64,000 nt of DNA, from NCBI GenBank assembly GCA_963741885.1, contig CAVUJS010000009.1, forward strand, positions 54,636 to 118,635, written 5' to 3'. Numbering within the stretch: the first letter of the stretch is position 1; each line of letters begins with the position of its first letter. Positions 41,937 through 56,607 of the stretch are shown one piece after another. The DNA is from an uncultured Chloroflexia bacterium (lineage in GTDB: Bacteria; Chloroflexota; Anaerolineae; Anaerolineales; Anaerolineaceae). A model generated the notes under the pieces. The model was not told the DNA's origin. It worked only from the letters and a program-made list of their open reading frames with translations, and made no database searches. Both the position numbers and the translations under genes were made by a program.

Positions 41937-42347
41937 GCGATTATCCTTTTTCTGACACAAATCCTTGCGGAAGTTTCAATAAAGATTTTAGCACGAATCT
42001 TAAAAAACATGATTAGACCTGAGATGAGATTCCTCGCTGGTCTTAAGCATAATTCGGGTCTAGGTGTTTTTTCCCCCGCTCTTTACCGAAGCGATGGGGA
42101 ATATCCTATGAAACCATTAGGGGATCCCATAGTTTACCCGCTTCGCAAAATAAACTTTAATATATACATCGCGTATGGTTTCCGCGATCCACAGGGGGCA
42201 GCGTTCGTAAAATTGACCGCCAAGGGGGTATGCCCAAGGCAAATTGAATAGAAATCACAATGACCAAACATCGAACAAGCATCACGGGCATTGGATTTAT
42301 TTCCTGCGGCAAAGAAAGGAGCTAAAGACTGACGAAGGGAGAAAAAG

Positions 42348-43064
42348 GTGTTTCAAGTACCTGAGAATGCAAAGAAAGTGAACGGCAGGGAAGGGCTTTT
42401 AGGGTGGATGGATACCCGCAGCCACCTGGCGAATGATAACGAGGTCGTAATTCAGACCATCAACGGAAACCGCCTGATTGTTCCGCGCGATTTGCTCCGC
42501 GAACAAGGTGATGGTAGTTTTTTTCTGCCATTAACCGCGGATCAGTTGCAAAAAATTGATGCGAAGGGTGCGCAGAAAGAAGCTCTGAAAGGCGACTTGA
42601 AAGCGCGCGCCGCGCAGAAACTCGCGGACCAACAGAAAGCGGCTGAAACCGCACCTGCCCCAGGCGATATTGACCAGGAAGAACTGCTGGTTATCCCTGT
42701 AGTGGTAGAGAAGTTGGACGTGAACAAGGACCTGGTGACCACCGGGCGGATTCGGGTCACGAAAACCGTGCAAGAGCACGAGGAGACCATCGACCAGCCG
42801 GCTTACCGGGAAACCGTTGACGTTAAACGCGTGCCCGTTGATCAGTTTGTCACGGAAGCGCCAGATGTACGCCAGGAAGGGGACACCTTAATTATTCCAG
42901 TCTTGGAAGAGGTCCTGGTGGTAGAAAAGCGACTGAGAGTCAAAGAAGAAATTCGAGTGACTCGCCAGCGCGAACAAATACAAAACCCGCAGAAGGTCAC
43001 CCTGCGTTCTGAAGAGGTCAAGGTAGACCGGATCAAAGCCGATCACGAGCACGATAACAGCTGA
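42348..43064 (+). CDS. DUF2382 (YsnF/AvaK-type) stress-response domain protein
   Basis: GTG start after GGGAGAAAAAG. Duplicated LVIPVVVEKLDVNK...RIRVTK and LIIPVLEEVLVVEKR...IRVTR units. Confidence 0.75.
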   Translation: MFQVPENAKKVNGREGLLGWMDTRSHLANDNEVVIQTINGNRLIVPRDLLREQGDGSFFLPLTADQLQKIDAKGAQKEALKGDLKARAAQKLADQQKAAETAPAPGDIDQEELLVIPVVVEKLDVNKDLVTTGRIRVTKTVQEHEETIDQPAYRETVDVKRVPVDQFVTEAPDVRQEGDTLIIPVLEEVLVVEKRLRVKEEIRVTRQREQIQNPQKVTLRSEEVKVDRIKADHEHDNS

Positions 43065-43231
43065 TCCGCTTTGGTTCTCAGACTGACCTGGATTGAAAAC
43101 GAGCCGCCCGCATTCATTGGCGGGCACCGCGCGCCGGGCTGCGAATACAGCCCGCCCAGTCGAACGTTCAAGTCTCGGCCGATTGGCTGGCTGCGCGGAC
43201 AAGACGAGACCCAAAAGGAGAATTTCTTTAT

Positions 43232-44566
43232 ATGAAGACCGTTGTAGGATTATTCAACAACTTTGATGACGCACAACAGACCGTACGAGCCTTGCGAGAT
43301 GCCGGGTTCCCCAAAGAAAACATCAGCATGATCGCTCGCGATACCAATGGCGACTATACGCGCTATATGGAAGGTACGCGCGCTGGCGATACCCGCAATA
43401 TTGCTCCTGGTACGGCCGATACCCGCGCCAATTATGACACCAACACCAACACCGATACCGGCACCAACGTCGGCGAAGGGACTGCCTGGGGCGCCGGGAT
43501 TGGCGCCGTATTAGGCGGCCTGGGCGGCTTGCTGCTCGGTTTGGGCACCCTGGCGATCCCGGGAATTGGCCCGGTGTTAGCGGCTGGCCCGCTGGCCGGG
43601 ACCCTGGTAGGTGCTGGCGCTGGCGCGGTAACCGGTGGCATCATCGGCGCGCTGGTCGGCCTCGGCATTCCTGAGGAACAGGCCCATGCTTACGCCGAAG
43701 GCATTCGCCGCGGCGGTACCCTGGTTGTCGTGCGCACTGCGGATGAAAACGCTGACAAAGCGTCTGATATCATGAACCGCTTCAACCCGGTAGATATCGA
43801 CCGCACGATGCAGGCCTGGAAGCAGGCGAATTGGAAGGGCTTCAATGAGAACGAGAAACCCTACACTGCGGACCAGATGGAATTCAACCGCGAAGCAGGC
43901 GTGCCGGTTACCGGCCGCGACCGTGACATGGACGTCGAAAAAGACGTTACCATTCCGGTAGTTGAAGAGCGCATGAACGTTGGAAAACGCGAAGTGCCCA
44001 CCGGCGGCGTGAAGGTACATACCTACGTCGAGCAGAAGCCGATTGAAAAAGAAGTCAACCTGCGCAAGGAAGAAGTTGATGTAGAGCGCCGCCCGGTGAA
44101 TCGCCCGGCGACCGAAGCTGACATCAACGCTTTCAAAGAAGGCACCATGGAATTCACCGAGAAGGAAGAGAAAGTTGTTTCTGAGAAGAAACCTTTCGTG
44201 GTGGAAGAAGTACACGTTGAAAAAGACGTGGAAAATGAACCCACAACCGTCCGGGATACGCTCCGTGAAGAGCACGTAGAAGTTGAACACTTCGACGAGG
44301 CTGCTTTCAACCGCGCAGAACCCATGTTCCGCCGCAACTTCCAGGACCGCTTTGCGAATTGGGGCGGGCGCTATGAGGACTTCCGTCCTGCGTACCGCTA
44401 CGGCTATGGCCTGGGCGCGAACCAGCAGTATAACAACTATGACTGGAACCGCCTGGAACCTGTTGCCCAGAAAGATTGGCAGCGCCGGGGAATGACCGGT
44501 AACTGGAACGACTATCGCGACGCTGTTCGCTACGGTTGGGAAACCTATCGCGGCAACCGCGGATAA
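43232..44566 (+). CDS. General-stress-protein-17M-like N-domain + glycine-zipper membrane segment + DUF2382 domain
   Basis: MKTVVGLFNNFDDAQQTVRALRDAGFPKENISMIARD. GAGIGAVLGGLGGLLLGLG...GIPEEQAHAYAEGIRRGGTLVVV. IPVVEERMNVGKREV. Tail is YRYGYGLG... Confidence 0.8.
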   Translation: MKTVVGLFNNFDDAQQTVRALRDAGFPKENISMIARDTNGDYTRYMEGTRAGDTRNIAPGTADTRANYDTNTNTDTGTNVGEGTAWGAGIGAVLGGLGGLLLGLGTLAIPGIGPVLAAGPLAGTLVGAGAGAVTGGIIGALVGLGIPEEQAHAYAEGIRRGGTLVVVRTADENADKASDIMNRFNPVDIDRTMQAWKQANWKGFNENEKPYTADQMEFNREAGVPVTGRDRDMDVEKDVTIPVVEERMNVGKREVPTGGVKVHTYVEQKPIEKEVNLRKEEVDVERRPVNRPATEADINAFKEGTMEFTEKEEKVVSEKKPFVVEEVHVEKDVENEPTTVRDTLREEHVEVEHFDEAAFNRAEPMFRRNFQDRFANWGGRYEDFRPAYRYGYGLGANQQYNNYDWNRLEPVAQKDWQRRGMTGNWNDYRDAVRYGWETYRGNRG

Positions 44567-44779
44567 AATAGTCAGCGAGGGTTGTCCAAACCTCGGGTTT
44601 GGGCGACCCTTTTCGTAAACTTTCACGATATCAAAATGCGGAACGGCACTGCCTGCCGTTCCGCATTTTGATCTAAAAGGCTGCATTTGTGGGAATGTCC
44701 TACTGCGATAAAGGGTGACTCCGCATTGAACCGGGCAGTGCTTAACGGTTTAATAGATGATATATACAGGAGGTAAGAA

Positions 44780-45790
44780 ATGCGAACTGTAGTAGCTCTG
44801 TTTGATCGATTTGAAGATGCACAAATGGCAGTTCAAGCCCTGCGCGATGCAGGCTTTAACCGCACAAACATTAACTTAATTGCCCGCGATGCGACGGGCG
44901 AGTATGGCCGTTTCTTGAAAACCACCCCAGGCGCGACGGACCAGGGCACGGCTGTCGATGAAGGCACAGCCGTCGGTGAAGGAACCGCGGCGGGCGCTGG
45001 CATCGGCGCGGTGTTGGGCGGGCTGGGCGGTTTCTTGCTCGGCCTGGGCGCGCTGGCGATCCCGGGGATTGGCCCGGTGATTGCGGCTGGACCGATTGTG
45101 GCCGGGCTGGCTGGCGCTGGCGTAGGCGCAGTGACCGGCGGGCTGATCGGCGCGCTGGTTGGTCTGGGCATTCCCGAAGAACACGCCAATTACTATGCCG
45201 AGGGCATTCGCCGCGGCGGTACGCTGGTGACCATCAGCGCGCCGGATGAGCGGGCCGATGAGGCGCGCGACATCCTCAATAACTTCAACCCGGTGGATAT
45301 TGAAACGCGGGCCAAGGCCTGGCAAAATAACAACTGGGGCGGCTTTAATGAAACCGCCGGACCCCTCCCGGCAGACCAGATGGAATTCAACCGGGTCAAG
45401 ACCTTTGACGCGGGCAGGGGCGCCCCGGAACATGCCCGGACCCCGATGCATGAAGATATCCCGGTGACTGGTCCGGTTACCGGCGCGCCGACGGTGGGCA
45501 ATGCGCGGGTGAATGCGCCCGGCTCCGCCATGGATTGGAACTACTATGACCAGGATTTCCGCACGCACTACCAGAACAGCTTTGCCACCAGCGGCCGGGA
45601 CTACACCTATTACCAGCCGGCTTACCGCTATGGCTACGACCTGGCCAACAACCCGCAGTACCGCGGATATGACTGGAACCGCATCGAACCGATTGCGCGC
45701 CAGAACTATCAGCAGCAGGGCATTCAGGGCGCCTGGGACGACGTAAAAGACGCCGTCCGCCACGCCTGGAACTCAGTCACCAATTCGTAA
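44780..45790 (+). CDS. Paralogous GSP17M-like + glycine-zipper stress protein (no DUF2382)
   Basis: MRTVVALFDRFEDAQMAVQALRDAGFNRTNINLIARD, the same glycine-zipper block and the same C-terminal YRYGYDLANNPQYRGYDWNRIEP motif as the upstream gene. Confidence 0.8.
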   Translation: MRTVVALFDRFEDAQMAVQALRDAGFNRTNINLIARDATGEYGRFLKTTPGATDQGTAVDEGTAVGEGTAAGAGIGAVLGGLGGFLLGLGALAIPGIGPVIAAGPIVAGLAGAGVGAVTGGLIGALVGLGIPEEHANYYAEGIRRGGTLVTISAPDERADEARDILNNFNPVDIETRAKAWQNNNWGGFNETAGPLPADQMEFNRVKTFDAGRGAPEHARTPMHEDIPVTGPVTGAPTVGNARVNAPGSAMDWNYYDQDFRTHYQNSFATSGRDYTYYQPAYRYGYDLANNPQYRGYDWNRIEPIARQNYQQQGIQGAWDDVKDAVRHAWNSVTNS

Positions 45791-45808
45791 CCGTTTTAGA
45801 TTAAAAAT

Positions 45809-45836
45809 AAAGGCCGGCTAATCAGCCGGCCTTTTA
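45809..45836 (+). terminator. Intrinsic terminator
   Basis: AAAGGCCGGC-TAATCA-GCCGGCCTTTT. Confidence 0.8.
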
Positions 45837-46024
45837 ATTTGTAAACAAATATTGGGTAATTCACCCCTGAATGTGGCAAAAGCGCGTAGACGCGCTGGTA
45901 CATTCCATGCAACTGGGTTAATCCTGCGGTTGATAGGAATCTGAAAGGTATTTCTGGAATTCTTTGGCGTTATTTCCGTTATAAAATGTAGATTACTCTG
46001 CGGGGTTAGAGAATAGAGAAACCA

Positions 46025-48469
46025 ATGCTGCTGCGACGAAGTTCATTTTGGTGGGGCTGGGCACTGGCGGCTGGCTCGTTACTGCTGGCGTACCTGGGTT
46101 TCGTGCTGCTGATTACCCAACCCTTCCAGCGCATGGTTTTGGCCGATATCGCTGCACCTTTGATTGATTTACTGGCTGTGGGCGGGCTGCTGCGCGCGGC
46201 ATGGGTGCTGCACAACCGGGATAATCCCTTCGAGCGGCGCATGGCGATGGTCTGGATGGTGCTGGGGTTGGCCCAGTTGTACACCGCGCTGGGTGACCTG
46301 GTCTGGATGTTGTACGAGAGCATCTTCCATATTCCTGCCAGCCCCTCCATCGCCGATGTCCTTTATCTCCTCTTTTACCCGACCTTCCTGCTCGGCCTGA
46401 TTCTGATCCCCACCCGGCAGCGCTCTAAGCACGAGTGGATCAAGGTCGGCATTGATATGGGGATTGTGGTGCTGGTGGCGCTGCTGGTAGGCGGGAACTA
46501 CATCCTCGGCGCTCAAGCGCAAGGCCAGCAGGTTTCTCCATTATTAATGATGATCAACCTCTCCTACCCGGTCGGCGACCTGGCCCTGCTGGTGGCGCTG
46601 CTGTTTGCGCTGTCCTACCTGAGCGGCATCCGCTGGCGCGCGCCAATGCTGATCCTGGCGGTTGGGCTGCTGTTCATCGTGATTTTCGACCTGCTCTACG
46701 GCATGGATTGGACCCGCAATCCTTACCAGACTGGCAACCTGGTTGACCTGCCCTATGTCTTCGGTAATTTCCTGATCGGTTTAGGCGGCATTGTGCAGGC
46801 GGAGTGGAAATTAAAGGATAAAGCTGAACCAGCAGAGGATGCGGAGAGCAAGGAGCCCATCTGGCTGAGTTACCTGCCGTACTTTTGGGTACTGGCAGCC
46901 TATATCCTGCTGGTTTCCGGCGATATGCGCTTTTTGCCGATGCAGCCGATCATGGTGGAGATGATCGTGGGGCTGGTCATGTGCCTGGTGGTGCTGCGCC
47001 AGGTGCTGGAGATGTATGAGAATCGCGAACTTTCCAGTCATTTGCAGCGTGCCCTGACGCAGCTGGGCGACCAGGCGGTGACCCTGGAGCAAACCAACCA
47101 GGAAATGCAGGCGGAAATCCTGGAGCGGCGGCGGGTGGAAGAACGCCTGATGCACGATGCCCTGCATGACGCCCTGACAGGCCTGCCGAACCGCACCTTG
47201 TTTCTCGACCGCCTGGGCCAGGCAGCGCGCAAGAAAAAACGCAGCCCCGCCTTTACCTATGTGGTGCTGTTCCTCGACCTGGACAGCTTTAAAGTAGTCA
47301 ATGACAGCCTGGGGCATATCACCGGTGACCGTCTGCTGATGCGCATCGCCAACATCTTGAGCGCCTGCGTGCGGGGCAGCGACACCGTGGCCCGCCTGGG
47401 CGGGGATGAGTTTGTCATCCTGCTGGAAGATTTGAGCAGCCCCGAAGTGGCGACCAATACCGCCGACCGCATGCAGCGCGAATTAAACAAACCCATGCAG
47501 TTGGAAGGGGTGCGCGTGTTTGTTTCCGTCAGTATTGGCATCGTCGAAAACGTGGACTCCTACGAGCACCCCGAAGATGTGCTGCGCGACGCCGACCTGG
47601 CGATGTATCAGGCCAAGTCGCGCGGCAAGGCGCGTTATGAAATCTTCAACTCGAGCATGCGCGCCAGCGCGATTTCACGCATGCTGTTGGAAAACGATAT
47701 GCGCCGCGCGTTAGAGAGTCATGAGTTTGTGCTGCATTACCAGCCTATCCTGACCCTGCCCGAAAAGCGCCTGGATGGGTTTGAGGCGTTGGTGCGCTGG
47801 CAGCACCCCGACCGCGGCCTGATCCAGCCGCTGGAGTTTATCCCGCTGGCGGAGGAGACCGGGTTGATCCTGCCCCTGGGGAAGTGGATTCTTTCGGCGG
47901 CCTGTCACCAGGCCTATGAATGGCAGATGCGCTTCCCGGAAGCGCCGGGCATGAAGGTGAACGTTAATATCTCTGGGCGGCAGATCAAGCAGCCGGACTT
48001 CGTCCTGATGGTGGCGCAGGTGCTGCAAGATTCGCACCTCGACCCGCGCCGCCTGGTGCTGGAGGTGACCGAAACCGTCTGCCTGGACAACCTGGCGACG
48101 GTGGTGGCGACGCTGGAAGCGCTGCAAAGGCTGGGCGTGGAAACGCAGATCGATGACTTTGGTACGGGGTATTCTTCCTTAAGCTACTTGCAGCGCCTGC
48201 CGATCCATTCGATCAAAATCGACCGCTCTTTCATTCACACCATCGACAGTAAAACTGGCAGCGCACCCGATATGGTGCGGGCGATCTTTTCGATGGTCAA
48301 TAACCTGGGCATTAAAGCCGTGGCAGAAGGCATCGAAACCCTGCCGCAGCTGGAAGAACTCACCCGCCTGCACTGTGATTATGTACAGGGCTATTTACTG
48401 GCGCACCCCATGGACTCTTTGAACCTTGAGAAATGGCTGCTCGACAACCCGGCTTCCCCTTGCAGCTGA
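46025..48469 (+). CDS. Membrane sensor GGDEF-EAL protein
   Basis: About 9 TM helices and a coiled coil. RLGGDEFVILL (GGDEF). EAL domain with EALVRW, DDFGTGYSSL and EGIE. Confidence 0.9.
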   Translation: MLLRRSSFWWGWALAAGSLLLAYLGFVLLITQPFQRMVLADIAAPLIDLLAVGGLLRAAWVLHNRDNPFERRMAMVWMVLGLAQLYTALGDLVWMLYESIFHIPASPSIADVLYLLFYPTFLLGLILIPTRQRSKHEWIKVGIDMGIVVLVALLVGGNYILGAQAQGQQVSPLLMMINLSYPVGDLALLVALLFALSYLSGIRWRAPMLILAVGLLFIVIFDLLYGMDWTRNPYQTGNLVDLPYVFGNFLIGLGGIVQAEWKLKDKAEPAEDAESKEPIWLSYLPYFWVLAAYILLVSGDMRFLPMQPIMVEMIVGLVMCLVVLRQVLEMYENRELSSHLQRALTQLGDQAVTLEQTNQEMQAEILERRRVEERLMHDALHDALTGLPNRTLFLDRLGQAARKKKRSPAFTYVVLFLDLDSFKVVNDSLGHITGDRLLMRIANILSACVRGSDTVARLGGDEFVILLEDLSSPEVATNTADRMQRELNKPMQLEGVRVFVSVSIGIVENVDSYEHPEDVLRDADLAMYQAKSRGKARYEIFNSSMRASAISRMLLENDMRRALESHEFVLHYQPILTLPEKRLDGFEALVRWQHPDRGLIQPLEFIPLAEETGLILPLGKWILSAACHQAYEWQMRFPEAPGMKVNVNISGRQIKQPDFVLMVAQVLQDSHLDPRRLVLEVTETVCLDNLATVVATLEALQRLGVETQIDDFGTGYSSLSYLQRLPIHSIKIDRSFIHTIDSKTGSAPDMVRAIFSMVNNLGIKAVAEGIETLPQLEELTRLHCDYVQGYLLAHPMDSLNLEKWLLDNPASPCS

Positions 48470-48705
48470 ATTGGATAAATGGTGATTAATTTCACAAGGA
48501 TCAAGGATAAAAATAGTTGCTTCCCCAGATTAGAAAAGGTACAATAATTTCTTAGGAGCTATGATCCTGGCTGGAGGCATGGCTGCCTGATTGATTTACC
48601 TTAGCGTTGATCAAAACCTTCGAAACCCCCGCCTGATCCAAACAGCGCGACCAGCAAATCGGTACGCGCTGAATGTGGCAGCAAAATTTGAAATGAGAAA
48701 ATCCA

Positions 48706-50112
48706 ATGAACGAGCGTAAAAAACCCGTTTTTTCGCACGACGCAGGCAGCAGTCCGAACCGTACCGAGGCCCGCGAACCTTATCGAGTAGGTGTCTTTTT
48801 CTCCCGTTTACTATCGGCGCATGTGCTCACCCCTTATTTGCAGAAGATGACGGATCGCTACCTGCGGCTTGAACCGGCCAAATTAAAGTCCCTGCCTGGG
48901 CCGCAGCCAGGGAAGGGCTATACCTTATACATCCATATCCCCTTTTGCGAGAGCCTGTGCCCTTACTGCTCCTTCAACCGCTTCCTTTTTGACAGGGAAC
49001 AGGCGCTGGACTATTTCAAGCATCTGCGGGAAGAACTGCGCATGGCGCAGCGCCTGGGTTACCACTTCACCTCGCTGTACATTGGCGGCGGCACGCCCAC
49101 CATTTTGATTGATGAGCTGTGCGAGACGATCGACCTGGCCCGCGCGCTCTTTCCCATCGGCGAAGTCTCCTGTGAGACCAACCCCAACCACCTGATTCCA
49201 GCCTATATTGAGAAACTGTCCGGGCGCGTGCAGCGCCTGTCGGTGGGCGTGCAGTCTTTTGAGGATGATCTGCTGAAAGAGATGGGCCGCTTCCAGAAGT
49301 TTGGCTCGGGCAGCGAGATTGTCGAGAAGATCCGCGCGGCAGCGCCCTACTTCCCTTCGCTGAACGTGGATATGATCTATAACTTCCCCAACCAGAGCGA
49401 GGAAATCTTGCGCCGCGATGTGCAAATGGTGATCGATTCGGGCGCGCAGCAGGTGACCTTCTACCCGTTGATGACTTCCCCGTCTGTAGCGAAACTGTTG
49501 GACCGTTCGGTGGGGCGCGTGGATTACCGGCGCGAGGCGCGTTATTATGAGATCGTGCTGGAGGCGCTGGGCGGGGAGTTCAAGCCTATGTCGGCCTGGA
49601 CCTTCCTGCGCAAGGGCACCGGTATGCTGGACGAATATATCGTGGAGAGCGAGGAGTACGTGGGGCTGGGCTCGGGCGCGTTTAGCTTCCTGGACGGCAC
49701 GCTGTACGTCAATACCTTCTCCCTGCGGGAATACCGCCGCGCAATCGAAGCCGGGTCCATGTCCGTCTCGGCCTGCCAGGTCTACGGCAAGCGCGAGCAG
49801 ATGCGCTACCGCTTTATGATGGAATTGTTCAGCCTGCGCTTTGACCGGGCGCGCTTCCAGCGCAGTTTTAAGACCCCGGCGGAGTGGGGCCTGTTCTTCG
49901 AGATGCTCTTTATGGGCCTGGCGGGTTCGTTCGCGCGCATCACGCGCGATGCGCTGTTTCTGACCCCGCGCGGCAAGTACCTGGCAGTGGTGATGATGCG
50001 CGAATTCTTCTCTGGCGTGAATAATGTGCGCGACGAAGCGCGCAAAGCCCTCTCTGAGGACGAGCGTATGTGCGCCTTCCCGCTCAAAGGCAAGCAGGTG
50101 ACGGTGCATTAA
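48706..50112 (+). CDS. Radical SAM enzyme, HemN/HemZ-like coproporphyrinogen-III-oxidase family
   Basis: CESLCPYCSF (CxxxCxxC), GGGTPT, and a HemN_C-like tail. Confidence 0.88.
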   Translation: MNERKKPVFSHDAGSSPNRTEAREPYRVGVFFSRLLSAHVLTPYLQKMTDRYLRLEPAKLKSLPGPQPGKGYTLYIHIPFCESLCPYCSFNRFLFDREQALDYFKHLREELRMAQRLGYHFTSLYIGGGTPTILIDELCETIDLARALFPIGEVSCETNPNHLIPAYIEKLSGRVQRLSVGVQSFEDDLLKEMGRFQKFGSGSEIVEKIRAAAPYFPSLNVDMIYNFPNQSEEILRRDVQMVIDSGAQQVTFYPLMTSPSVAKLLDRSVGRVDYRREARYYEIVLEALGGEFKPMSAWTFLRKGTGMLDEYIVESEEYVGLGSGAFSFLDGTLYVNTFSLREYRRAIEAGSMSVSACQVYGKREQMRYRFMMELFSLRFDRARFQRSFKTPAEWGLFFEMLFMGLAGSFARITRDALFLTPRGKYLAVVMMREFFSGVNNVRDEARKALSEDERMCAFPLKGKQVTVH

Positions 50113-50327
50113 GCAAAAGCCCGGTTCCATTCTGGAACGACTCACGCCCCTGCTGAACTCCGGGGCGGGAAAGGCCGTCCCCGAATGCGGTTGTGCCGCA
50201 AAACGAATAAGCGCATCAAACAGGGCGAGGGGAGGTTCCTTTCGAAAGCCAATGATCATTCGCGGATGAACCCAAGCCATCCTCGGCCTATTTTATTCGT
50301 TTATTCGCTTCTGCCATTCGTGGACGG
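50074..50327. repeat. Direct repeat, copy 1 (last 39 bp of the radical SAM gene + spacer + MITE-like element 50175..50327)
   Basis: About 94% identical by hand alignment to 54593..54845. The two copies bracket the AT-rich island. Confidence 0.9.
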
Positions 50328-50403
50328 TTTTGCCACACCCCGCAGGGCGCTTGCGTTATAAAAATAGCTTCCGGTTTTACAAAAAATCCTCACCCCCGGC
50401 CCC

Positions 50404-51884
50404 CATAGGCGCTAACTTATGGTTGTCCATTAAGCTGCACAAAGCATTGCCAATTGAGAGCGAGCCACCGCAAGCTGCTGACGGCGTTTTCTGGGAGAGC
50501 CACACAGGTACCTTTCGAGCAGGGCGAGCTTCCCCAAAACCTGTTGCCAACTGGGCAGTTCGCCAATGACCCAAGACAGGAGGGTGTGGATCAAGTAGGT
50601 GTCCAGGCGCCAAATGCTGATCGGGCGATCCAGGTCGTCAAACAAATCCGGTACCTGTTGGGCGATTTCCGAGCGCAAACCATCGACCAAAATGGCGGCC
50701 AGGAGTTTGGTCAGCAAGTAGGTTTGCGCCAGGTCATTATTCTGAGCGCGCAGGTGATCCAGGTCCAACAAGCTTTTCATGCGTTTGAAATACAGCTCAA
50801 TTTGCCAGCGCCAGCGATACAGCGCCAAGACTTGTTCGCTAGACCAGCCTTGGGCCGGTAAGTTAGTGAGGAGGATGACAAACCCGACGGCGTACAGGTT
50901 CTTCTCCATCGGTTGATGTTTTTTCTTGCGGCTGTTCTTGCGCGCGCGTTCACGGGCTTTTTCCGCTTTTTCGGGTGGCAAGGGACAGGCCACCAGGCGC
51001 ACCGGCTGCAGCCCTTGCGCGCCAGGCAGCCACACCTGCGTTTCCGCCGGGTCAGTCGCTCCTTGCGGAAAGGTAGCTTTGAGCCAGGCGATGATGTCGA
51101 ACTTCTCTCCCGCTTGGCTATAGACCGGCATGGTATTCCACTGCTCGCGCGTGACAAACTTGGCCCCGGCCTGCAAGGCCTTTTCCAGGCCACGGGTGCG
51201 GGTATAACCGCTATCCGCCAGATAGATGTCCTGGTCGCTCAGCGAAAAGTTGCCAAAGCCTTCGCCGCCATGTTCATCGGTGAGGATCACTTGATCAATG
51301 CGCATCTGGTCGAGATCCATCGACACATGCAGCCGCCAATCGGTGCCCTGGCTCTTGGGTTTGGAGATCACGCTGGCATCCAGGATTTTGAGATGCAGCG
51401 CCGCTTGGGACGGGAATTGGATGCCGTTCTGCTGTAGCAGTTGCACCGCCAGTGCGCCCAGCCAGGCTGGCATGCCTTGTAGGCGTCGCATCAGATCCAC
51501 ATCCGAGATATTGCAGATCTCTAACAGGGTCGCCATCAGCGCGGTTTGCCGTAATGACCAATCCGGCAAGCTATACAGAAACGCCAATTGTAAGAGCGCT
51601 TCCGCGCTGCGGATCTCACGGCAGCGCAGCAAGGCCGCATGTTGCTTGGCGCTTTGATCTAGATCGTCTGGCAGTCTTTGTTTCACCCTTTCCCATTTCT
51701 CATTCAGCAACGGATGACTGCTCGTGGCTGTTGCCGCTACGGGTTGATCGAAGATTTGAACTGTGCTACACTCCACCTTGACCTCCTGGGTTTGATTTTG
51801 GTTTTGAGCAGCTTAATCTTACCCTAGAGGTCATTTTTGTCGTATCTGTTTGTTTCCGTTCAGAACCATAAGTTAGCGCCTATG
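50404..51884 (-). mobile_element. IS4-family insertion sequence (1481 bp) with 21-bp perfect TIRs and an 11-bp target-site duplication
   Basis: TIR CATAGGCGCTAACTTATGGTT at 50404-50424, with its reverse complement at 51864-51884. Flanking CCCCCGGCCCC at 50393-50403 and 51885-51895. Confidence 0.9.
50430..51776 (-). CDS. IS4-family DDE transposase
   Basis: 448 aa. YRWRWQIELYFKRMK (Y-2-R-3-E-6-K signature of the IS4 family). Fills the IS between the TIRs. Confidence 0.9.
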   Translation of the reverse strand: MECSTVQIFDQPVAATATSSHPLLNEKWERVKQRLPDDLDQSAKQHAALLRCREIRSAEALLQLAFLYSLPDWSLRQTALMATLLEICNISDVDLMRRLQGMPAWLGALAVQLLQQNGIQFPSQAALHLKILDASVISKPKSQGTDWRLHVSMDLDQMRIDQVILTDEHGGEGFGNFSLSDQDIYLADSGYTRTRGLEKALQAGAKFVTREQWNTMPVYSQAGEKFDIIAWLKATFPQGATDPAETQVWLPGAQGLQPVRLVACPLPPEKAEKARERARKNSRKKKHQPMEKNLYAVGFVILLTNLPAQGWSSEQVLALYRWRWQIELYFKRMKSLLDLDHLRAQNNDLAQTYLLTKLLAAILVDGLRSEIAQQVPDLFDDLDRPISIWRLDTYLIHTLLSWVIGELPSWQQVLGKLALLERYLCGSPRKRRQQLAVARSQLAMLCAA

Positions 51885-52140
51885 CCCCCGGCCCCTCTCC
51901 ATTTTCGCCAAAGCTCGAAAACGGAGGGGTGCCTTTTAATGGTGCGAAAATTCGCCCGATTTCTGCCTCCCCTCTCCGAAACCTGCCGGTTTTGCAGGTT
52001 TTGGAGAGGGGATCGAGAGGTGAGGATTTTGTTTGTTACGCTGAGCATAACCTCCATACGGCGAACGCGGTTCGCCGCAAGGAACGGTTGCCCAACGCAA
52101 GGAGAAAGGGCGGCGAACCGTGGGGTGAGGATTTTATGCG
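51885..52140. repeat. Mosaic hairpin repeat cluster (right half of the element interrupted by the IS)
   Basis: CTCTCCATTTTCGCCAAAGCTCGAAAACGGAGGGG, CCCCTCTCCGAAACCTGCCGGTTTTGCAGGTTTTGGAGAGGGG, CGGTTCGCCGCAAGGAACGGTTGCCCAACGCAAGGAGAAAGGGCGGCGAACCG, GGGTGAGGATTTT. Collinear with the uninterrupted copy at 56715..56955. Confidence 0.85.
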
Positions 52141-52292
52141 CATTCGCCCTGGTTACCCCGGCTGCGGGATTGATTTTTGAGTGTGGTATATAATCATATG
52201 ATCAATTGGTTTGGAAAATGCTTTTATATTCCAGCCCGGCTGGTAATCGATTATTGAATATCGGAGATATTGAGTCCAGGACTTGAGGTTCT

Positions 52293-53393
52293 ATGGCGAA
52301 TAATGAGAGTTTGAATAAGGCAAATATAGCAAAGAAAGACGAGTTTTATACGCAGCTGTCGGATATTGAGGCAGAAATGCGCCATTACAAAGAACAGTTT
52401 CGCGGCAAGGTCATTTTCTGCAACTGCGACGACCCATATGAGAGCAACTTTTTCAAATATTTTGCGATGAACTTTAATTTTTTGGGTCTAAAAAAACTGA
52501 TCGCTACCAGTTATTCCGGGTCTCCGGTCGCGACCCAACAACTGTCCTTGTTTGATGTTAAGGATTTGGCGGTGGAAAGCACCGATGACAGGCACCCGTA
52601 TAAAGTCGAGATTACTGAAGTAAATGACGAAAACGCGGACGGCGCGGTTGGCCTGGCGGACGTGGCGTATTTGCTCAAAAACAAAAAAAATGCTTTAGCG
52701 TTACTGGAAGATGGCGGCGATTTCCGCTCGGCTGAATGTATCGCACTTGCTGAAAGAAGCGGATATCGTAGTCGACTAATCCACCATTTTCACTGTTCCG
52801 GGAATATGTGGCGCAGTTAGATGGAATACGAAAAAGCAGTTTATCATTATTGGTAATACAAATGCTTTAACATATAAAGAAATATTTAAACTAATAAAGA
52901 GGACAATAAGATTTGGCTATGGCAAATTTCCATAGTGGGAATGTATTTTTATGTTCCAGATTATTACCCGATAAATAGCGATAAGATTGAAGAGTGGACG
53001 AAAGATGGTTAGGGTTTCGTACATCTTGTTGGTTTACTAACCTATGAGTTTGAAGAACGACACGAAAATTATTACATCTATATAAGCATTACACATCCGA
53101 AGAATACCCTCGCTATATTAATTACGACGCAATTGAAGTGCTCAAAAACCGCCGAAATACCCTGCGACTATGATGGTGAAATGGGCGTTCCCATTACATT
53201 CCTTGATAAATACAATCCGGAACAATTTGAAATTATAGGTTCAAGTATCTTTCTCGGAAAACCGATGTCTGAAATTGCCCCGAAAGGAACCTATATGGCG
53301 GGGGGCGTAAGGTTCTATCTTCCAAATGGGGATGGCACTTACAAACGTCTTTATGATCGGATTGTGATTAAGCGGAAAGGCGCTCGACAATGA
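52293..53393 (+). pseudogene. Decayed N6-adenine DNA methyltransferase (EcoRI-methylase-like family), multiple frameshifts and stops
   Basis: The N-terminal 150 aa are intact (KKDEFYTQ, VIFCNCDDPYESNFFKYF). NPPFSLFREYVAQL, IIIGNTNALTYKEIFKLIK, YFYVPDYYPINSDKIEEW, WFTNL, YPRYINYDAIEVLKN and GVPITFLDKYNPEQFEIIG are all present but spread over all three frames, with at least 6 frame changes. Confidence 0.8.
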
Positions 53394-54478
53394 AAATCGA
53401 ATTGCAAGAAATCACCGTCCGCGAAGTCGCGGAAAAGTACGTAGATAACGCCGAAGAGGGCGTGGTGGGCTACCACAGCAAACTGAATATCCGCCCGAAA
53501 TACCAGCGCGAGTTCGTCTATGACGAGAAAAAGCGTAACGCGGTGATGGATACCATCCGCAACGGTTTTCCCCTCAATGTCATCTACTGGGCGAAAAATG
53601 AAGATGGCACGTTTGAAGTGTTAGACGGTCAGCAAAGGACGATCAGTTTTTGCCAGTACGTTTGCGGCGATTTCTCCATCGACAACCGCGCTTTCCACAA
53701 CCTGACGAACACCGAAAAAGAACAGATCCTCAACTATCCGCTGATGGTCTATTTCTGCGAGGGCAACGACAAGGAAAAGTTAGACTGGTTCAAGATCATC
53801 AATATTGCTGGCGAAAAACTCACCGACCAGGAACTGCGCAACGCGGTATATACCGGACCCTGGCTGACACACGCAAAATCGATCTTCAGTAAAAGCAACT
53901 GCGCGGCTTATCTTTTATCCAAAGACTATGTGAGTGGCTCTCCGATCCGGCAAGAAATTCTCGAAACAGCATTAAGTTGGATCTCAAATGGCGAAATAGA
54001 GAAGTACATGTCTATGCACCAGCACGACCCGAACGCGAATGAGTTGTGGATGTATTACCGGAGCGTCATAGATTGGGTGCAATTAACCTTCCCTGAGTAC
54101 CGTAAAGAAATGAAAGGCATCGAATGGGGCGGTTTGTACGATCAATTCAAAGATGAATTGTTTGACACCCACAAGTTGGAGCAGGAAATACAGTCCCTGA
54201 TGCTGGATGATGACGTCACAAAAAAACGGGGAATTTATCCTTATGTATTAAACCGCGACGAGAAATATCTCAATCTTCGCGCCTTTACCCCGAATCAAAA
54301 GCGGGAAGCGTATGAAAGGCAAAAAGGCATCTGTCCAAGATGCGGACCTGAGAAACACTACGCACTGGAAGAAATGGAAGCTGACCACATTACTCCGTGG
54401 CATGAAGGCGGGAAAACCATCGCGGAGAACTGCCAGTTTCTTTGCAAGAGACACAATCGGGAAAAATCTGGAAAATAA
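53390..54478 (+). CDS. DUF262 (ParB/Srx-fold, GmrSD N-domain-like) + C-terminal HNH nuclease
   Basis: RPKYQREFVY and LDGQQRT (DUF262 motifs). C-terminal CPRCG...ADHITPWHEGGKTIAENCQFLCKRHNREK (HNH). ATGA overlap with the end of the methylase pseudogene. AT-rich codon usage. Confidence 0.85.
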   Translation: MKIELQEITVREVAEKYVDNAEEGVVGYHSKLNIRPKYQREFVYDEKKRNAVMDTIRNGFPLNVIYWAKNEDGTFEVLDGQQRTISFCQYVCGDFSIDNRAFHNLTNTEKEQILNYPLMVYFCEGNDKEKLDWFKIINIAGEKLTDQELRNAVYTGPWLTHAKSIFSKSNCAAYLLSKDYVSGSPIRQEILETALSWISNGEIEKYMSMHQHDPNANELWMYYRSVIDWVQLTFPEYRKEMKGIEWGGLYDQFKDELFDTHKLEQEIQSLMLDDDVTKKRGIYPYVLNRDEKYLNLRAFTPNQKREAYERQKGICPRCGPEKHYALEEMEADHITPWHEGGKTIAENCQFLCKRHNREKSGK

Positions 54479-54592
54479 AAATTGGTAAGAACAATAAACG
54501 CTCCTTCTTTTGCGAATTGAAGGAGCGTTTAGATTGTTGGAGGGGTTTTGTGTTTATTTTTTGAGCACTTCATTTAAGCTGCCACTGCTGAA

Positions 54593-54845
54593 GCCTTCCC
54601 GCTCAAGGGCAAGCAGGTGACGGCGCATTAAGCAAAAGCCCGGTTCCATCCTGGAACAACTCACGCCCCTGGTGAATTACGGGGCGGGTAAGGCCGTCCC
54701 CGAATGCGGCTGCGCCGCAAAACGAATAAACGCATCAAACAGGGTGAGCGGAGGTTCCTTTCGAAAGCCAATGATCATTCGCGGATGAACCCAAGCCATC
54801 CTCGGCCTATTTATTCGTTTATTCGCTTCTGCCATTCGTGGACGG
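54593..54845. repeat. Direct repeat, copy 2 (pseudo 3' end of the radical SAM gene + spacer + MITE-like element 54694..54845)
   Basis: GCCTTCCCGCTCAAGGGCAAGCAGGTGACGGCGCATTAAGC... is collinear with 50074..50327. Preceded by a ~45-bp segment homologous to the larE 3' end. Confidence 0.9.
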
Positions 54846-54973
54846 CATTCCCATCCATGACTACGGAAAAGGCGTCCGAATGGCAAGCCGGCGCCAGATG
54901 GGCAGAGCAATCCCGGTTAGGAGCGCGATCCCGTGGCTCTCAGGTAGGGGATAGTTGCTCCAATTCAACCTGC

Positions 54974-55756
54974 TCAGACGCTTAAGACCCATACGTCAGT
55001 CTGCTTGTTCTGGCCTTTAATCTCGAGCTGCCTGGATTCCAGGCTGCCCAAATCGAGCCCAGAGGCTGTATAGGCCGCGTCGCTGATGAGAATCTCACCC
55101 GTCCCAGCCTGCGTGGCCAGGTGCGCGGTGATATTGACATTCGTGCCTAAAGCAGTGAAATCGGTTGGTTGGCCGTGCGAACCCCCAACCACGCCAACAA
55201 ATGCTGTGCCTGTATGAATCCCAATGCCCACCGGAACCCAGGGACCTTCCGTTTCTCCATGCCCGGTCAGCTTCAACAGGTTTTGAGCTGCTTTAATCGC
55301 CTTACCTGGATGATCCTGCCCGGCGAGCCCGGGGATAAACAAACCGACCACCTCATCGCCGATTAACCGGTCTACCATCGCATCCGTCTTGATCAGAACA
55401 TCGGTAGCGGTGACATAGAAACGGTTGATCAGCTTGCTAAATTCCAGAGCGCTCATTTTTTCGGCCAGAACAGATGAACCCCGCACGTCAGCAAAGAGCA
55501 TGGTCAGCACGACTTCTGCCCCGCCAGGATGTTCATAGCGCTCGCATTGCTCACAGTAGCGAGGGTTGAACCGTGACTGGTCCTTACCGATCAAATGCAT
55601 CAGAAATCCCCCCAAGCCTTTGAAGGGCGCGTTACACAACTTGCAACGAGGGCTGGAAGGTAACAGGCCCATTAAGTGACGGAGATGGACCGGCACGTTT
55701 TCCCCTGTGGTAAGCGACCGATACCATTCCTCTTCAAGGGTCTGTTTGTCTGGCAT
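54974..55756 (-). CDS. Class III adenylate/guanylate cyclase with N-terminal Zn-ribbon
   Basis: CKLCN...CEQCE ribbon. LFADVRGSSVLAEK, GDEVVGLF, GIHTGTAFVGVVG and GTNVNITAHL cyclase core. Confidence 0.85.
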   Translation of the reverse strand: MPDKQTLEEEWYRSLTTGENVPVHLRHLMGLLPSSPRCKLCNAPFKGLGGFLMHLIGKDQSRFNPRYCEQCERYEHPGGAEVVLTMLFADVRGSSVLAEKMSALEFSKLINRFYVTATDVLIKTDAMVDRLIGDEVVGLFIPGLAGQDHPGKAIKAAQNLLKLTGHGETEGPWVPVGIGIHTGTAFVGVVGGSHGQPTDFTALGTNVNITAHLATQAGTGEILISDAAYTASGLDLGSLESRQLEIKGQNKQTDVWVLSV

Positions 55757-55764
55757 ACTTCCCT

Positions 55765-56607
55765 CTAATCTTTATTCAGCACTTCATTTAAACTGCCACT
55801 GCGGAAGCCTTCCAGGTCTACGGTGACGTACTGGAAGCCAATTTGCTTGAAATAGGCGCTGACTTCTTCGCGCAGCCCGACCAGGCGGGCGATTTCGCTG
55901 GCCTGGACTTCGATGCGCGCTAAAGGGCCAGTATTGCGCACGCGCACCACGTCGAAGTTGAGCGCGCGCAGGTAGGCTTCGCCAGAGGCCACCTGCTGTA
56001 ACTTCTCGCGGGTGACTTTATTGCCGTAGGGGATGCGGGAGGCCAGGCAGGGCGAAGAGGGGTGGTTCCAGTTACCTAACCCCAAGGCTTTGGCCATAGC
56101 GCGCACTTCCTGCTTGGTGATGCCCAGTTCGGCCAGCGGAGAGGTGACCTGACGTTCCTTTGCCGCGCGCAAGCCGGGGCGGTAATCGCCCAGGTCGTCG
56201 GCGTTGGCGCCCATCAGCACGTGCCGGATGCCCGCTTTCTGGGCAATCTCACTGATGATGCCCAGGTCGACCGATTTGCACACATAGCAGCGGTTCGGAG
56301 AGTTTTCCACGTATTCTTCATCTTGCAGCTTGTCATAATCAATGACCTGGTGGGGAAAACCAAACTGGGCTGCCAGGGCAGCGGCTGTTTCCATGATGCC
56401 CGCGGTCTCTACCTGCGAGCGGATGGTGACCGCCAGCATGTGCGGCTCGAGCGCCTGGTGGGCGACCACCGCCAGCAGCGAACTATCCACGCCGCCTGAA
56501 AATGCCACGACTGCCGCATCCATCTCCGTCAGGCGCTGCACCAGCGCCTGGTATTTTTGATCTATTTGGGGGTTATGGGTAAGGGTTGGGAGGGTTTTTG
56601 TCGTCAT
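55765..56607 (-). CDS. larE: ATP-dependent sacrificial sulfur transferase LarE (PP-loop ATPase)
   Basis: PP-loop VAFSGGVDSS, CYVCK, and the sacrificial-Cys motif SSPCLASRIPYG. No larA/B/C adjacent. Confidence 0.85.
   Translation of the reverse strand: MTTKTLPTLTHNPQIDQKYQALVQRLTEMDAAVVAFSGGVDSSLLAVVAHQALEPHMLAVTIRSQVETAGIMETAAALAAQFGFPHQVIDYDKLQDEEYVENSPNRCYVCKSVDLGIISEIAQKAGIRHVLMGANADDLGDYRPGLRAAKERQVTSPLAELGITKQEVRAMAKALGLGNWNHPSSPCLASRIPYGNKVTREKLQQVASGEAYLRALNFDVVRVRNTGPLARIEVQASEIARLVGLREEVSAYFKQIGFQYVTVDLEGFRSGSLNEVLNKD

What the first reader, a model, noticed from the sequence alone, without database searches (positions are those of the whole stretch)
50074..54845. AT-rich ~4.3 kb island bracketed by ~254-bp direct repeats that include the 3' end of the radical SAM gene
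SEEN: 50074-50327 and 54593-54845 are collinear with about 14 differences, roughly 94% identity by hand. Each contains the last 39 bp and stop codon of the HemN-like gene, a spacer and a MITE-like element. The interval between them holds an IS4 element, mosaic repeats, a dead methyltransferase and a DUF262-HNH gene. From ~52.2 to 54.56 kb the interval is visibly AT-rich (mid-40s % GC by eye, against over 60% outside). No integrase, tRNA or recombinase is present.

INFERENCE: this is horizontally acquired defence cargo. It was either inserted with duplication of the target or captured by homologous recombination from a related genome. The 6% divergence of the repeats argues against a very recent duplication.
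Basis: partly seen in the sequence, partly recalled or inferred. Interest (0 to 1): 0.6.

Follow-up and report, generated by a model that had tools for sequence, protein, structure and literature searches.

The report
Restriction cassette island flanked by duplicated gene end
A decayed restriction-modification cassette sits between two 94%-identical copies of a neighbouring gene's end. A scar at the right-hand copy suggests it arrived from a sister strain by recombination at a 7-base match, a recombinase-free route already known for such genes.

Summary
50074-50335 and 54593-54853 are collinear direct repeats with 16 substitutions and one 1-bp indel (93.5% identity). Each holds the last 39 bp of the radical-SAM gene, a spacer and a roughly 168-bp hairpin element.

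Only 52141-54556 is foreign. It has 43.8% GC against a genome mean of 54.9%, not "over 60%". It carries a promiscuous two-gene Type II-like cassette: a broken EcoRI-family methylase and an intact DUF262-HNH nuclease. The rest of the interval is lineage-typical mosaic repeats plus a recent IS4.

At least four relatives have the radical-SAM gene and larE tail-to-tail, 6-76 bp apart. Where I read the DNA, each tail contains GCCTTCC. In the window, a 46-nt larE' tail with its stop codon is fused at that heptamer to the second radical-SAM tail.

The locus is therefore two different [radical-SAM tail ... larE tail] units in tandem. My best reading (0.55) is that a sister strain's allelic unit was added through one homologous exchange and one 7-bp illegitimate joint. 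In-situ tandem duplication is the main rival.

This is a new member of the known "insertion with long target duplication", which this scan has already found on other DNA. No same-species genome or reads were available to test it.

The parts
48706..50112 (+). HemN-like radical-SAM gene (468 aa). Its last 39 bp lie inside repeat copy T1.
   Evidence: Pfam Radical_SAM. NCBIfam PRK08629, coproporphyrinogen III oxidase family, 529 bits. Some sources name homologues menaquinone C8-methyltransferase.
50074..50335 (+). Direct repeat copy T1. It contains GCCTTCC (50074-50080), the radical-SAM tail and stop (to 50112), a spacer with two small hairpins, and a roughly 168-bp hairpin element (about 50168-50335).
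   Evidence: 93.5% identical to T2. (fold).
50336..50403 (.). Mosaic repeat module of a genome-wide family, left of the IS. 50393-50403 is one copy of the IS target-site duplication.
   Evidence: 19 genome matches. Target-site duplication read.
50404..51884 (-). IS4-family element, with the transposase at 50430-51776 on the minus strand. It is a late, independent insertion.
   Evidence: 21-bp perfect terminal inverted repeats (I2). 11-bp target-site duplication CCCCCGGCCCC. Pfam DDE_Tnp_1 and NCBIfam IS4. Six copies in the genome, each 100% identical over its aligned length, 1476-1481 bp.
51885..52140 (.). Mosaic repeat modules, right of the IS.
   Evidence: 98 genome matches. The best match is elsewhere in the genome (C21, 92%), so they are not a local copy.
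52141..52292 (+). AT-rich upstream flank of the cassette, unique to this locus.
   Evidence: No match in other cassette loci or elsewhere in the genome.
52293..53393 (+). EcoRI-family N6-adenine methyltransferase pseudogene. It has at least 8 single-base insertions in 52747-53141 and several in-frame stops.
   Evidence: Pfam PF13651 matches the N-terminal and C-terminal fragments. PADLOC MTase_II. Alignment to the intact L105 gene.
53390..54478 (+). Intact DUF262(GmrSD_N)-HNH nuclease, 362 aa, the predicted restriction partner. Its start overlaps the methylase stop (ATGA).
   Evidence: Pfam. PADLOC REase_II PDLC03418, full length, E = 2e-137. All columns invariant across 29 homologues are kept, including DGQQR and the HNH motif. 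No indels against homologues.
54496..54530 (.). Strong hairpin (12-bp stem) between the nuclease stop and the larE' stop. It could act as a two-way terminator.
   Evidence: -40.9 kcal/mol for 54470-54600, z = -3.9.
54554..54599 (-). larE' fragment: a stop codon plus the last 14 codons of a diverged larE allele (...EGFSSGSLNEVLKK*). It ends in GCCTTCC.
   Evidence: 39 of 43 bases match the resident larE tail at 55771-55813. It is the only such match in the genome, E = 3e-10. Reading frame taken.
54593..54599 (+). The 7-bp joint, GCCTTCC. It is shared by the larE' fragment on its left and the radical-SAM tail copy on its right.
   Evidence: The same heptamer occurs in both gene tails of relatives L019, L140 and L141, 89-90 bp apart.
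54593..54853 (+). Direct repeat copy T2. Here the radical-SAM tail is non-functional, with an in-frame stop just upstream.
54974..55756 (-). Class III nucleotidyl cyclase gene (260 aa), 8 nt downstream of larE. It is the cargo of the second unit.
   Evidence: Pfam Guanylate_cyc. It was not found at this site in the seven relatives' contigs searched for it by tblastn (L007, L018, L019, L085, L139, L140, L142).
55765..56607 (-). Resident larE (ATP-dependent sacrificial sulfur transferase). Its tail heptamer GCCTTCC is at 55807-55813.
   Evidence: NCBIfam TIGR00268, 316 bits. Sequence.

Best explanation
The locus is a heterologous tandem doubling of the stretch between two convergent genes. A sister strain's version of that stretch was added to the resident one instead of replacing it.

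Ancestral state (shown): the radical-SAM gene and larE lie tail to tail, 6-76 bp apart. Each tail contains GCCTTCC in the same orientation.

Intermediate states (inferred): in this lineage the gap first acquired a spacer and a hairpin element, which together with the radical-SAM tail make up T. Different strains then gained different cargo behind T. One gained a cyclase gene. The other gained mosaic repeats and a horizontally acquired, AT-rich methylase/DUF262-HNH restriction-modification cassette.

The event (inferred): DNA of the cassette-bearing allele recombined homologously on its left, within T or the radical-SAM gene. On its right it joined illegitimately, with GCCTTCC in the donor larE tail meeting GCCTTCC in the recipient radical-SAM tail. 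Two routes fit:
- circularisation at the heptamers followed by a single Campbell-type crossover in T;
- homology-facilitated illegitimate recombination of a linear fragment.

The result is radical-SAM gene, T1, island, larE', then T2, cyclase, larE. Both genes stay intact and the island is bracketed by 262-bp repeats that were already about 6% diverged.

Later events: the methylase decayed, an IS4 inserted into the mosaic repeats, and the nuclease gene stayed intact. The repeats still share a 60-bp identical run, so RecA-mediated loss of the island should remain possible.
For: 1. Ancestral arrangement. GGDEF-EAL gene, then radical-SAM gene convergent with larE, with gaps of 17, 6 and 76 bp in L019, L140/L141 and the P0131 contig. 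In L019 and the P0131 contig a homologue of the 591-aa gene follows, as in the window.
2. The heptamer GCCTTCC is native to both tails, 89-90 bp apart, in L019, L140 and L141, and in the window at 50074 and 55807.
3. The joint at 54554-54631 reads larE' tail (stop plus 14 in-frame codons, 39/43 identical to the resident tail), then GCCTTCC, then the radical-SAM tail. This order is permuted relative to the ancestral one, as expected for a duplication or circle joint.
4. The larE' fragment directly adjoins the cassette's 3' flank. So the cassette once lay between a radical-SAM gene and larE.
5. T1/T2 are 6.5% diverged and larE'/larE 9%. The genus-level relative L019 aligns with that tail at only 80% over 45 bp. 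Mosaic repeats typical of this genome lie inside the island, and one of their modules also occurs in same-genus genomes. The donor was therefore a close relative.
6. The cassette is a promiscuous two-gene unit whose homology to other loci ends at the two ORFs (52292-54482). It has 37-47% GC everywhere.
7. No tRNA or integrase is present. The IS4 has its own target-site duplication and six identical copies, so it came later.
8. Experiments in E. coli found 3-10-bp microhomology at such illegitimate joints. They also found 109-950-bp duplications of the homologous arm when a circular molecule integrates by a single crossover (PMC3240628).
9. Restriction-modification genes flanked by 30-420-bp, sometimes about 93%-identical, target repeats that overlap gene 3' ends are documented (PMC2853133).
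Against: - No genome or contig of the same species exists in any collection searched. The best radical-SAM protein identity is 80% among 5.8 billion clusters. Neither postulated parental haplotype has been seen.
- The event count is the same as for an in-situ duplication followed by two cargo insertions.
- Classical homology-facilitated illegitimate recombination usually deletes recipient DNA rather than duplicating it. The circular-intermediate variant is therefore needed, or a left crossover upstream of the joint.
- Differences between T1 and T2 are uneven: 13 substitutions in the first 157 bp and none in the next 97 bp. This needs an extra assumption, such as a heteroduplex tract or later gene conversion.
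- Seven other loci carrying the cassette show no flanking long repeats.
Confidence: 0.55

Rival explanations
1. In-situ tandem duplication. Unequal exchange or slippage between the two GCCTTCC heptamers of sister chromosomes doubled a [radical-SAM tail, spacer, hairpin element, larE tail] unit within one lineage. The cyclase and the restriction-modification cassette with its mosaic repeats were then inserted separately into the two units, and the copies diverged by 6% in place.
For: The same permuted joint at a 7-bp microhomology is expected. The heptamers are native direct repeats about 90 bp apart in relatives. The total number of events is the same, three. The gap is a proven insertion site, since other relatives carry a GNAT gene there.
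Against: An initially perfect tandem repeat of roughly 300 bp with no cargo should be lost quickly by homologous recombination, long before 6-9% divergence builds up (inference from general knowledge of RecA-dependent loss of duplications). Both cargoes would have to land at the same relative position, directly behind the hairpin element and directly before the larE stop, in two adjacent copies. The non-functional copies (the larE' fragment and the radical-SAM tail in T2) still keep their frame and stop codon, although the sequences are too short for this to weigh much.
Confidence: 0.25
2. Assembly chimera. Two co-existing strain haplotypes (radical-SAM gene, T, cassette, larE; and radical-SAM gene, T, cyclase, larE) were merged into one contig of this metagenome-style assembly (21 contigs, 8% contamination estimate).
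For: The genome looks like a MAG. Both units end in the same genes. A frameshift elsewhere in the window was noted by another reader (note 6).
Against: An assembler joins sequences at long shared stretches, not at a 7-bp match. A merge of the two haplotypes would collapse T or larE, not create a larE'/radical-SAM joint in permuted order. No second copy of the radical-SAM gene, the cyclase or the cassette exists on other contigs.
Confidence: 0.07
3. Insertion by a dedicated mobile element (IS4 composite transposon, integrase island or MITE-mediated transposition), or a chance insertion between pre-existing dispersed repeats.
For: An active IS4 family and many hairpin and mosaic repeats are present. 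The right part of T belongs to a dispersed family.
Against: There is a single IS copy with its own 11-bp target-site duplication inside the island. There is no tRNA or integrase. T contains the unique radical-SAM tail and spacer and occurs only twice. The repeats are direct and 262 bp long, unlike transposon ends.
Confidence: 0.04

Closest known systems
Insertion of restriction-modification genes with long target duplication (Nobusato et al. 2000, cited from memory; Furuta, Abe & Kobayashi 2010, PMC2853133)
   Same: Restriction and methylase homologues in a short insert (under 20 kb). No integrase or transposase is responsible. Direct repeats longer than 30 bp overlap the 3' end of a resident gene. 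The insert has lower GC than the genome. Repeat identity of about 93% is also seen in their tables.
   Different: The matching empty site (one repeat copy, no insert) could not be shown in a same-species genome. The insert also carries a fragment of the other flanking gene (larE') and lineage-native repeats, and its right joint is a 7-bp microhomology. This points to an allelic donor locus rather than a free cassette. The methylase is dead.
Homology-facilitated illegitimate recombination, and single-crossover integration of circular DNA (summarised in PMC3240628)
   Same: One homologous side and one illegitimate joint at a 3-10-bp microhomology. Single-crossover integration of a circle gave 109-950-bp duplications of the homologous arm.
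   Different: Those are laboratory events in E. coli, Acinetobacter, Pseudomonas and Streptococcus. Here the process is inferred from a single natural sequence. Classical events of this type delete recipient DNA.
Tandem duplication by unequal exchange at short direct repeats
   Same: The novel joint has the permuted order (end of the unit followed by its start), with a short shared sequence.
   Different: The two units carry different cargo and are 6-9% diverged.
Integrase/tRNA genomic islands
   Same: Foreign, compositionally deviant DNA bracketed by direct repeats that include a gene's 3' end.
   Different: No integrase and no tRNA. The repeats are 262 bp and diverged. The joint lies at a coding-sequence microhomology.

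Membership tests
Insertion with long target duplication (criteria of Furuta et al. 2010) | Both a restriction gene and a methylase gene homologue lie in the inserted sequence | tested here: met
   PADLOC MTase_II and REase_II, Pfam EcoRI_methylase and GmrSD_N+HNH. The methylase is a pseudogene.
Insertion with long target duplication (criteria of Furuta et al. 2010) | Insert shorter than 20 kb and target duplication longer than 30 bp | tested here: met
   4257 bp lie between the repeats. The repeats are 262 and 261 bp.
Insertion with long target duplication (criteria of Furuta et al. 2010) | A related genome shows a single copy of the repeat and no insert (empty site) | tested here: inconclusive
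   No same-species sequence exists in the collections. Genus-level relatives show the radical-SAM gene abutting larE, but they lack the non-coding part of T.
Insertion with long target duplication (criteria of Furuta et al. 2010) | No other mobile element accounts for the insertion | tested here: met
   No tRNA. The only recombinase is an IS4 with its own target-site duplication inside the island.
Homology-facilitated illegitimate recombination / single-crossover circle integration | Illegitimate joint at a 3-10-bp microhomology on one side only | tested here: met
   GCCTTCC is shared by the larE' fragment and the radical-SAM tail at 54593-54599.
Homology-facilitated illegitimate recombination / single-crossover circle integration | Donor and recipient sequences identifiable on the two sides of a homologous crossover | not testable with these tools
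   This needs genomes of both parental strains, and none are available.
Homology-facilitated illegitimate recombination (strict sense) | Recipient DNA deleted at the joint | tested here: not met
   262 bp are duplicated, not deleted. Duplication is the outcome reported for single-crossover integration of circles.
Type II restriction-modification system (functional) | Intact cognate methyltransferase together with the nuclease | tested here: not met
   The methylase has at least 8 frameshifts and several stops. There is no second EcoRI-family methylase in the genome. The nuclease is intact.
Integrase-mediated genomic island | Tyrosine or serine recombinase and an attachment site in a tRNA or tmRNA gene | tested here: not met

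The most novel reading that the evidence does not exclude
The permuted larE'/radical-SAM joint could be a preserved footprint of how 'long target duplications' arise in general. The cargo-bearing gap between two convergent genes would be excised or circularised at a microhomology shared by the two gene tails. It would then integrate into another strain by a single homologous crossover. That adds cargo without harming either gene and without any recombinase. If general, this would give a mechanism for the recombinase-free mobility of restriction-modification, toxin-antitoxin and other defence cassettes. It would also explain why such repeats so often include gene 3' ends.
Probability: 0.3. Interest if true: 0.55.

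Novelty: new member of a known kind. Interest (0 to 1): 0.38.

Why it matters
Small defence cassettes spread between genomes without any mobility gene, and the mechanism behind their long flanking repeats has never been settled. This locus keeps the joint. A 7-bp match between the tails of two convergent genes links a sister-strain allele to the resident one. This turns a vague 'insertion with target duplication' into a specific model that can be tested at the bench: homologous exchange plus one microhomology joint, adding cargo instead of replacing it. As an instance it is still one more example of a documented phenomenon. The cargo is a common restriction-modification cassette and is half dead.

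Tried and rejected
- Same-species empty site. Exact-protein look-ups of the radical-SAM gene and the cyclase found nothing. A metagenome scan gave at best 79-81% identity. The genus holds only 7 other species, none with T or the cyclase. The best hit in 5.8 billion protein clusters is 80%.
- Species representatives of the genus (G001, G003-G006) have unrelated genes downstream of the radical-SAM gene, so they are uninformative.
- A genome-contig scan with larE gave one 72% relative, without the radical-SAM neighbour.
- I looked for long flanking repeats around the same cassette in seven other loci. None were found, so this cassette has no habitual duplication signature.
- L018, which has other cargo at the same site, has no long repeats either.
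- I tested whether the island's mosaic repeats were copied from the nearby larE/591-aa-gene spacer. They were not. Their best matches lie elsewhere in the genome.
- The PDB search with the nuclease gave only marginal HNH hits.
- A consensus terminator and promoter scan was uninformative.
- Codon-position analysis of the two tail copies gave too few sites to separate pre-existing from post-duplication divergence. The counts were 1 synonymous and 1 non-synonymous change in the radical-SAM tail, and 2 and 2 in the larE tail.
Full report
**1. The observation**

A self-comparison of 48-57 kb returns one long direct repeat. It is 50074-50293 against 54593-54812 (94%), continued after a 1-bp shift by 50292-50335 against 54810-54853. 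A global alignment gives 262 against 261 bp, with 16 substitutions and one 1-bp indel, 93.5% identity. These are the only full copies in the 5.69-Mb assembly. Other matches cover only 35-93-bp sub-parts, which belong to dispersed repeat families.

Each copy, which I call T, has three parts:
- the last 36 coding bases and the stop codon of the radical-SAM gene (48706-50112);
- a 55-bp spacer with two small hairpins;
- a roughly 168-bp imperfect long hairpin whose right end coincides with the end of the repeat.

**2. What lies between the repeats**

| Coordinates | Content | Evidence |
|---|---|---|
| 50336-50403 and 51885-52140 | Modules of a genome-wide mosaic repeat family (19 and 98 matches). 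The best matches are on other contigs. | |
| 50404-51884 | IS4-family element that split the mosaic repeats. 21-bp perfect inverted ends, 11-bp target duplication CCCCCGGCCCC. | |
| 52141-54556 | The only compositionally foreign part. | |

The IS4 has six copies in the genome, each 100% identical over its aligned length. Its insertion is therefore recent and independent of the island's origin.

The foreign part has 43.8% GC against a genome mean of 54.9 +/- 4.4% for windows of that size. That is z = -2.5, in the lowest 1.5% of windows. Its tetranucleotide distance is in the top 2.5%. The flanks are 55-60% GC, not over 60%.

The foreign part encodes two genes:
- An EcoRI-family adenine methylase. 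Pfam PF13651 matches both its N-terminal and C-terminal fragments, and PADLOC calls it MTase_II.
- A 362-aa DUF262(GmrSD_N)-HNH protein, whose start overlaps the methylase stop in ATGA. It matches PADLOC's REase_II model PDLC03418 end to end, E = 2e-137.

There is no tRNA and no integrase.

**3. The cargo is a promiscuous two-gene cassette**

Thousands of homologues of the nuclease exist. The closest are 80-89% identical and come from Chloroflexota, Parcubacteria and Bacillota. Relatives at 55-63% identity sit on plasmids of Firmicutes, Proteobacteria, Actinobacteria and Bacteroidota.

Wherever I read its context, an EcoRI-family methylase gene sits directly upstream in unrelated neighbourhoods, full-length except where the contig ends. 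DNA homology between the window and the L105 locus runs from 52292 to 54482, which is just the two ORFs. The cassette has 37-47% GC even where its flanks are 64%. So the core of the island is horizontally acquired.

In the window the methylase is dead. It has at least eight single-base insertions between 52747 and 53141 and several stops. No second methylase of this family exists in the genome.

The nuclease has no indel in 1089 bp. It keeps every column that is invariant across 29 homologues, including DGQQR and the HNH motif. At the methylase's indel density, the chance of seeing none in the nuclease is about 4e-4.

**4. The key to the repeats: the ancestral arrangement and a scar**

Among relatives with 75-80% radical-SAM protein identity, the common arrangement is a GGDEF-EAL gene, then the radical-SAM gene convergent with larE. 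Two of these contigs also have the homologue of the window's 591-aa gene beyond larE. The gap between the two stop codons is short:

| Relative | Gap between stops | Evidence |
|---|---|---|
| L019 | 17 bp | |
| L140 / L141 | 6 bp | |
| P0131 contig | 76 bp | |

L018 and L139 instead carry a GNAT acetyltransferase gene immediately downstream of the radical-SAM gene. In L018 it sits with a second, unknown gene between the radical-SAM gene and larE. The gap is therefore a recurrent landing site.

In L019, L140 and L141 both tails contain GCCTTCC in the same orientation, 89-90 bp apart. In the radical-SAM tail it encodes Ala-Phe-Pro. In larE it is the antisense of Glu-Gly-Phe.

The window has 5.65 kb between the two stops. 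Immediately left of T2, 54554-54599 is the antisense of a larE tail: a stop codon plus 14 in-frame codons...EGFSSGSLNEVLKK*. It is 39/43 identical to the resident tail at 55771-55813 and is the only such match in the genome. It ends in GCCTTCC, and from that heptamer onwards the sequence is the radical-SAM tail of T2.

The three sequences read:
- Radical-SAM gene: ...gtatgtgc GCCTTCC cgctcaaagg...
- Joint: ...ccactgctgaa GCCTTCC cgctcaaggg...
- larE: ...ccactgcggaa GCCTTCC aggtctacgg...

The order at the joint (larE tail, then radical-SAM tail) is the reverse of the ancestral order. That is what a duplication joint or a circle joint looks like.

**5. Reading**

The locus consists of two units in tandem, each running from the radical-SAM heptamer to the larE heptamer:
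- Unit 1: T1, mosaic repeats (with the IS4), the cassette, and the larE' fragment.
- Unit 2: T2, the cyclase gene, and the larE tail, which continues into intact larE.

One illegitimate exchange at the 7-bp match created the structure, and both genes stay whole.

I favour an origin from two diverged alleles, for four reasons:
- The larE' fragment sits directly behind the cassette's 3' flank, so the cassette once lay between a radical-SAM gene and larE.
- The copies differ by 6.5% in T and 9% in the larE tail. That is far closer than the genus-level relative L019, which aligns with this tail at only 80% over 45 bp. It is also too diverged for a fresh duplicate.
- Mosaic repeats typical of this genome lie inside unit 1, and one of their modules also occurs in same-genus genomes.
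- A cargo-free, perfect tandem repeat of about 300 bp would be unstable for the time needed to diverge in place. This last point is an inference.

Mechanistically the event has one homologous exchange on the left and one microhomology joint on the right. That is either homology-facilitated illegitimate recombination, or circularisation at the heptamers followed by a single crossover in T. In E. coli such illegitimate joints show 3-10-bp microhomology, and single-crossover integration of circles gave 109-950-bp duplications of the homologous arm (PMC3240628).

The differences between T1 and T2 are uneven. There are 13 substitutions in the first 157 bp, none in the next 97 bp, and three in the last 8 bp. 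A Fisher test gives p = 0.002, on a partition chosen after seeing the data. A heteroduplex tract at a crossover inside T, or later gene conversion, could explain this. I cannot tell which.

**6. Rivals**

- An in-situ duplication at the heptamers followed by two separate cargo insertions needs the same number of events and gives the same joint. I rate it at 0.25.
- An assembly chimera is unlikely, because assemblers do not join sequences at 7-bp matches or in permuted order.
- Element-mediated insertion is rejected. There is a single IS with its own target duplication, no tRNA and no integrase, and T occurs only twice.

**7. Comparison with what is known**

This meets three of the four criteria of 'insertion with long target duplication' of restriction-modification genes (PMC2853133). 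Both gene homologues are in the insert. The insert is under 20 kb with repeats over 30 bp. No other mobile element accounts for it. That paper also lists repeats that overlap gene 3' ends, low-GC inserts, and repeat identities near 93%.

The fourth criterion, a same-species empty site, could not be tested. No sequence closer than 80% protein identity exists in any collection searched.

This scan has already reported several such cases on other genomes. What this case adds is a preserved microhomology joint and a fragment of the second flanking gene. Together these indicate an allelic donor and a concrete route.

**8. Verdict**

This is a new member of a known kind, with moderate interest because of the mechanistic footprint. 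It rests on a single sequence with no population data.

Noticed in passing
window 52293-54478: The methylase has at least 8 frameshifting insertions, all within 52747-53141. The adjacent DUF262-HNH nuclease has no indel and keeps all family-invariant residues. The chance of that at equal decay rates is about 4e-4. No other EcoRI-family methylase is in the genome. The nuclease therefore seems to be maintained without its partner, which is odd for a classical Type II enzyme.
   Followed up: partly
window 50393-51895, and G000 contigs C4, C10, C21: All six identical IS4 copies abut mosaic-repeat modules in the BLAST coordinates. This suggests the IS targets that repeat family. The target duplication here is CCCCCGGCCCC.
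   Followed up: partly
window 54974-55756 (minus strand): A class III nucleotidyl cyclase gene lies 8 nt behind larE. It has weak PADLOC PycC (Pycsar cyclase) matches, E about 3e-12, but no effector gene beside it. It was not found at this site in the relatives searched for it, so it is itself an insertion into the radical-SAM/larE gap.
   Followed up: partly
L018 1617-2965, and L139 8429-9339: Relatives at 78-79% radical-SAM identity carry a GNAT acetyltransferase gene immediately downstream of the radical-SAM gene, in opposite orientations in the two contigs. In L018 it lies with an unknown 170-aa ORF between the radical-SAM gene and larE; the L139 contig ends about 300 bp beyond the GNAT gene, so larE was not seen there. 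The gap is a recurrent cargo site.
   Followed up: partly
window 50074-50335 against 54593-54853: Substitutions between the two repeat copies are clustered. There are 13 in the first 157 bp and none in the next 97 bp, which includes a 60-bp identical run. This may be a gene-conversion or crossover tract.
   Followed up: partly
window 41975-48700: In two genus representatives (G005, G006) the gene upstream of the radical-SAM gene is the homologue of 41013-41975. Relative to those genomes, the stress-type genes and the GGDEF-EAL gene of the window are extra. Other relatives (L019, L139, L140) do have the GGDEF-EAL gene there.
   Followed up: no
window 48706-50112: Some sources name close homologues of this HemN-like radical-SAM gene 'menaquinone C8-methyltransferase'. 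NCBIfam places it in the coproporphyrinogen III oxidase family, PRK08629.
   Followed up: no
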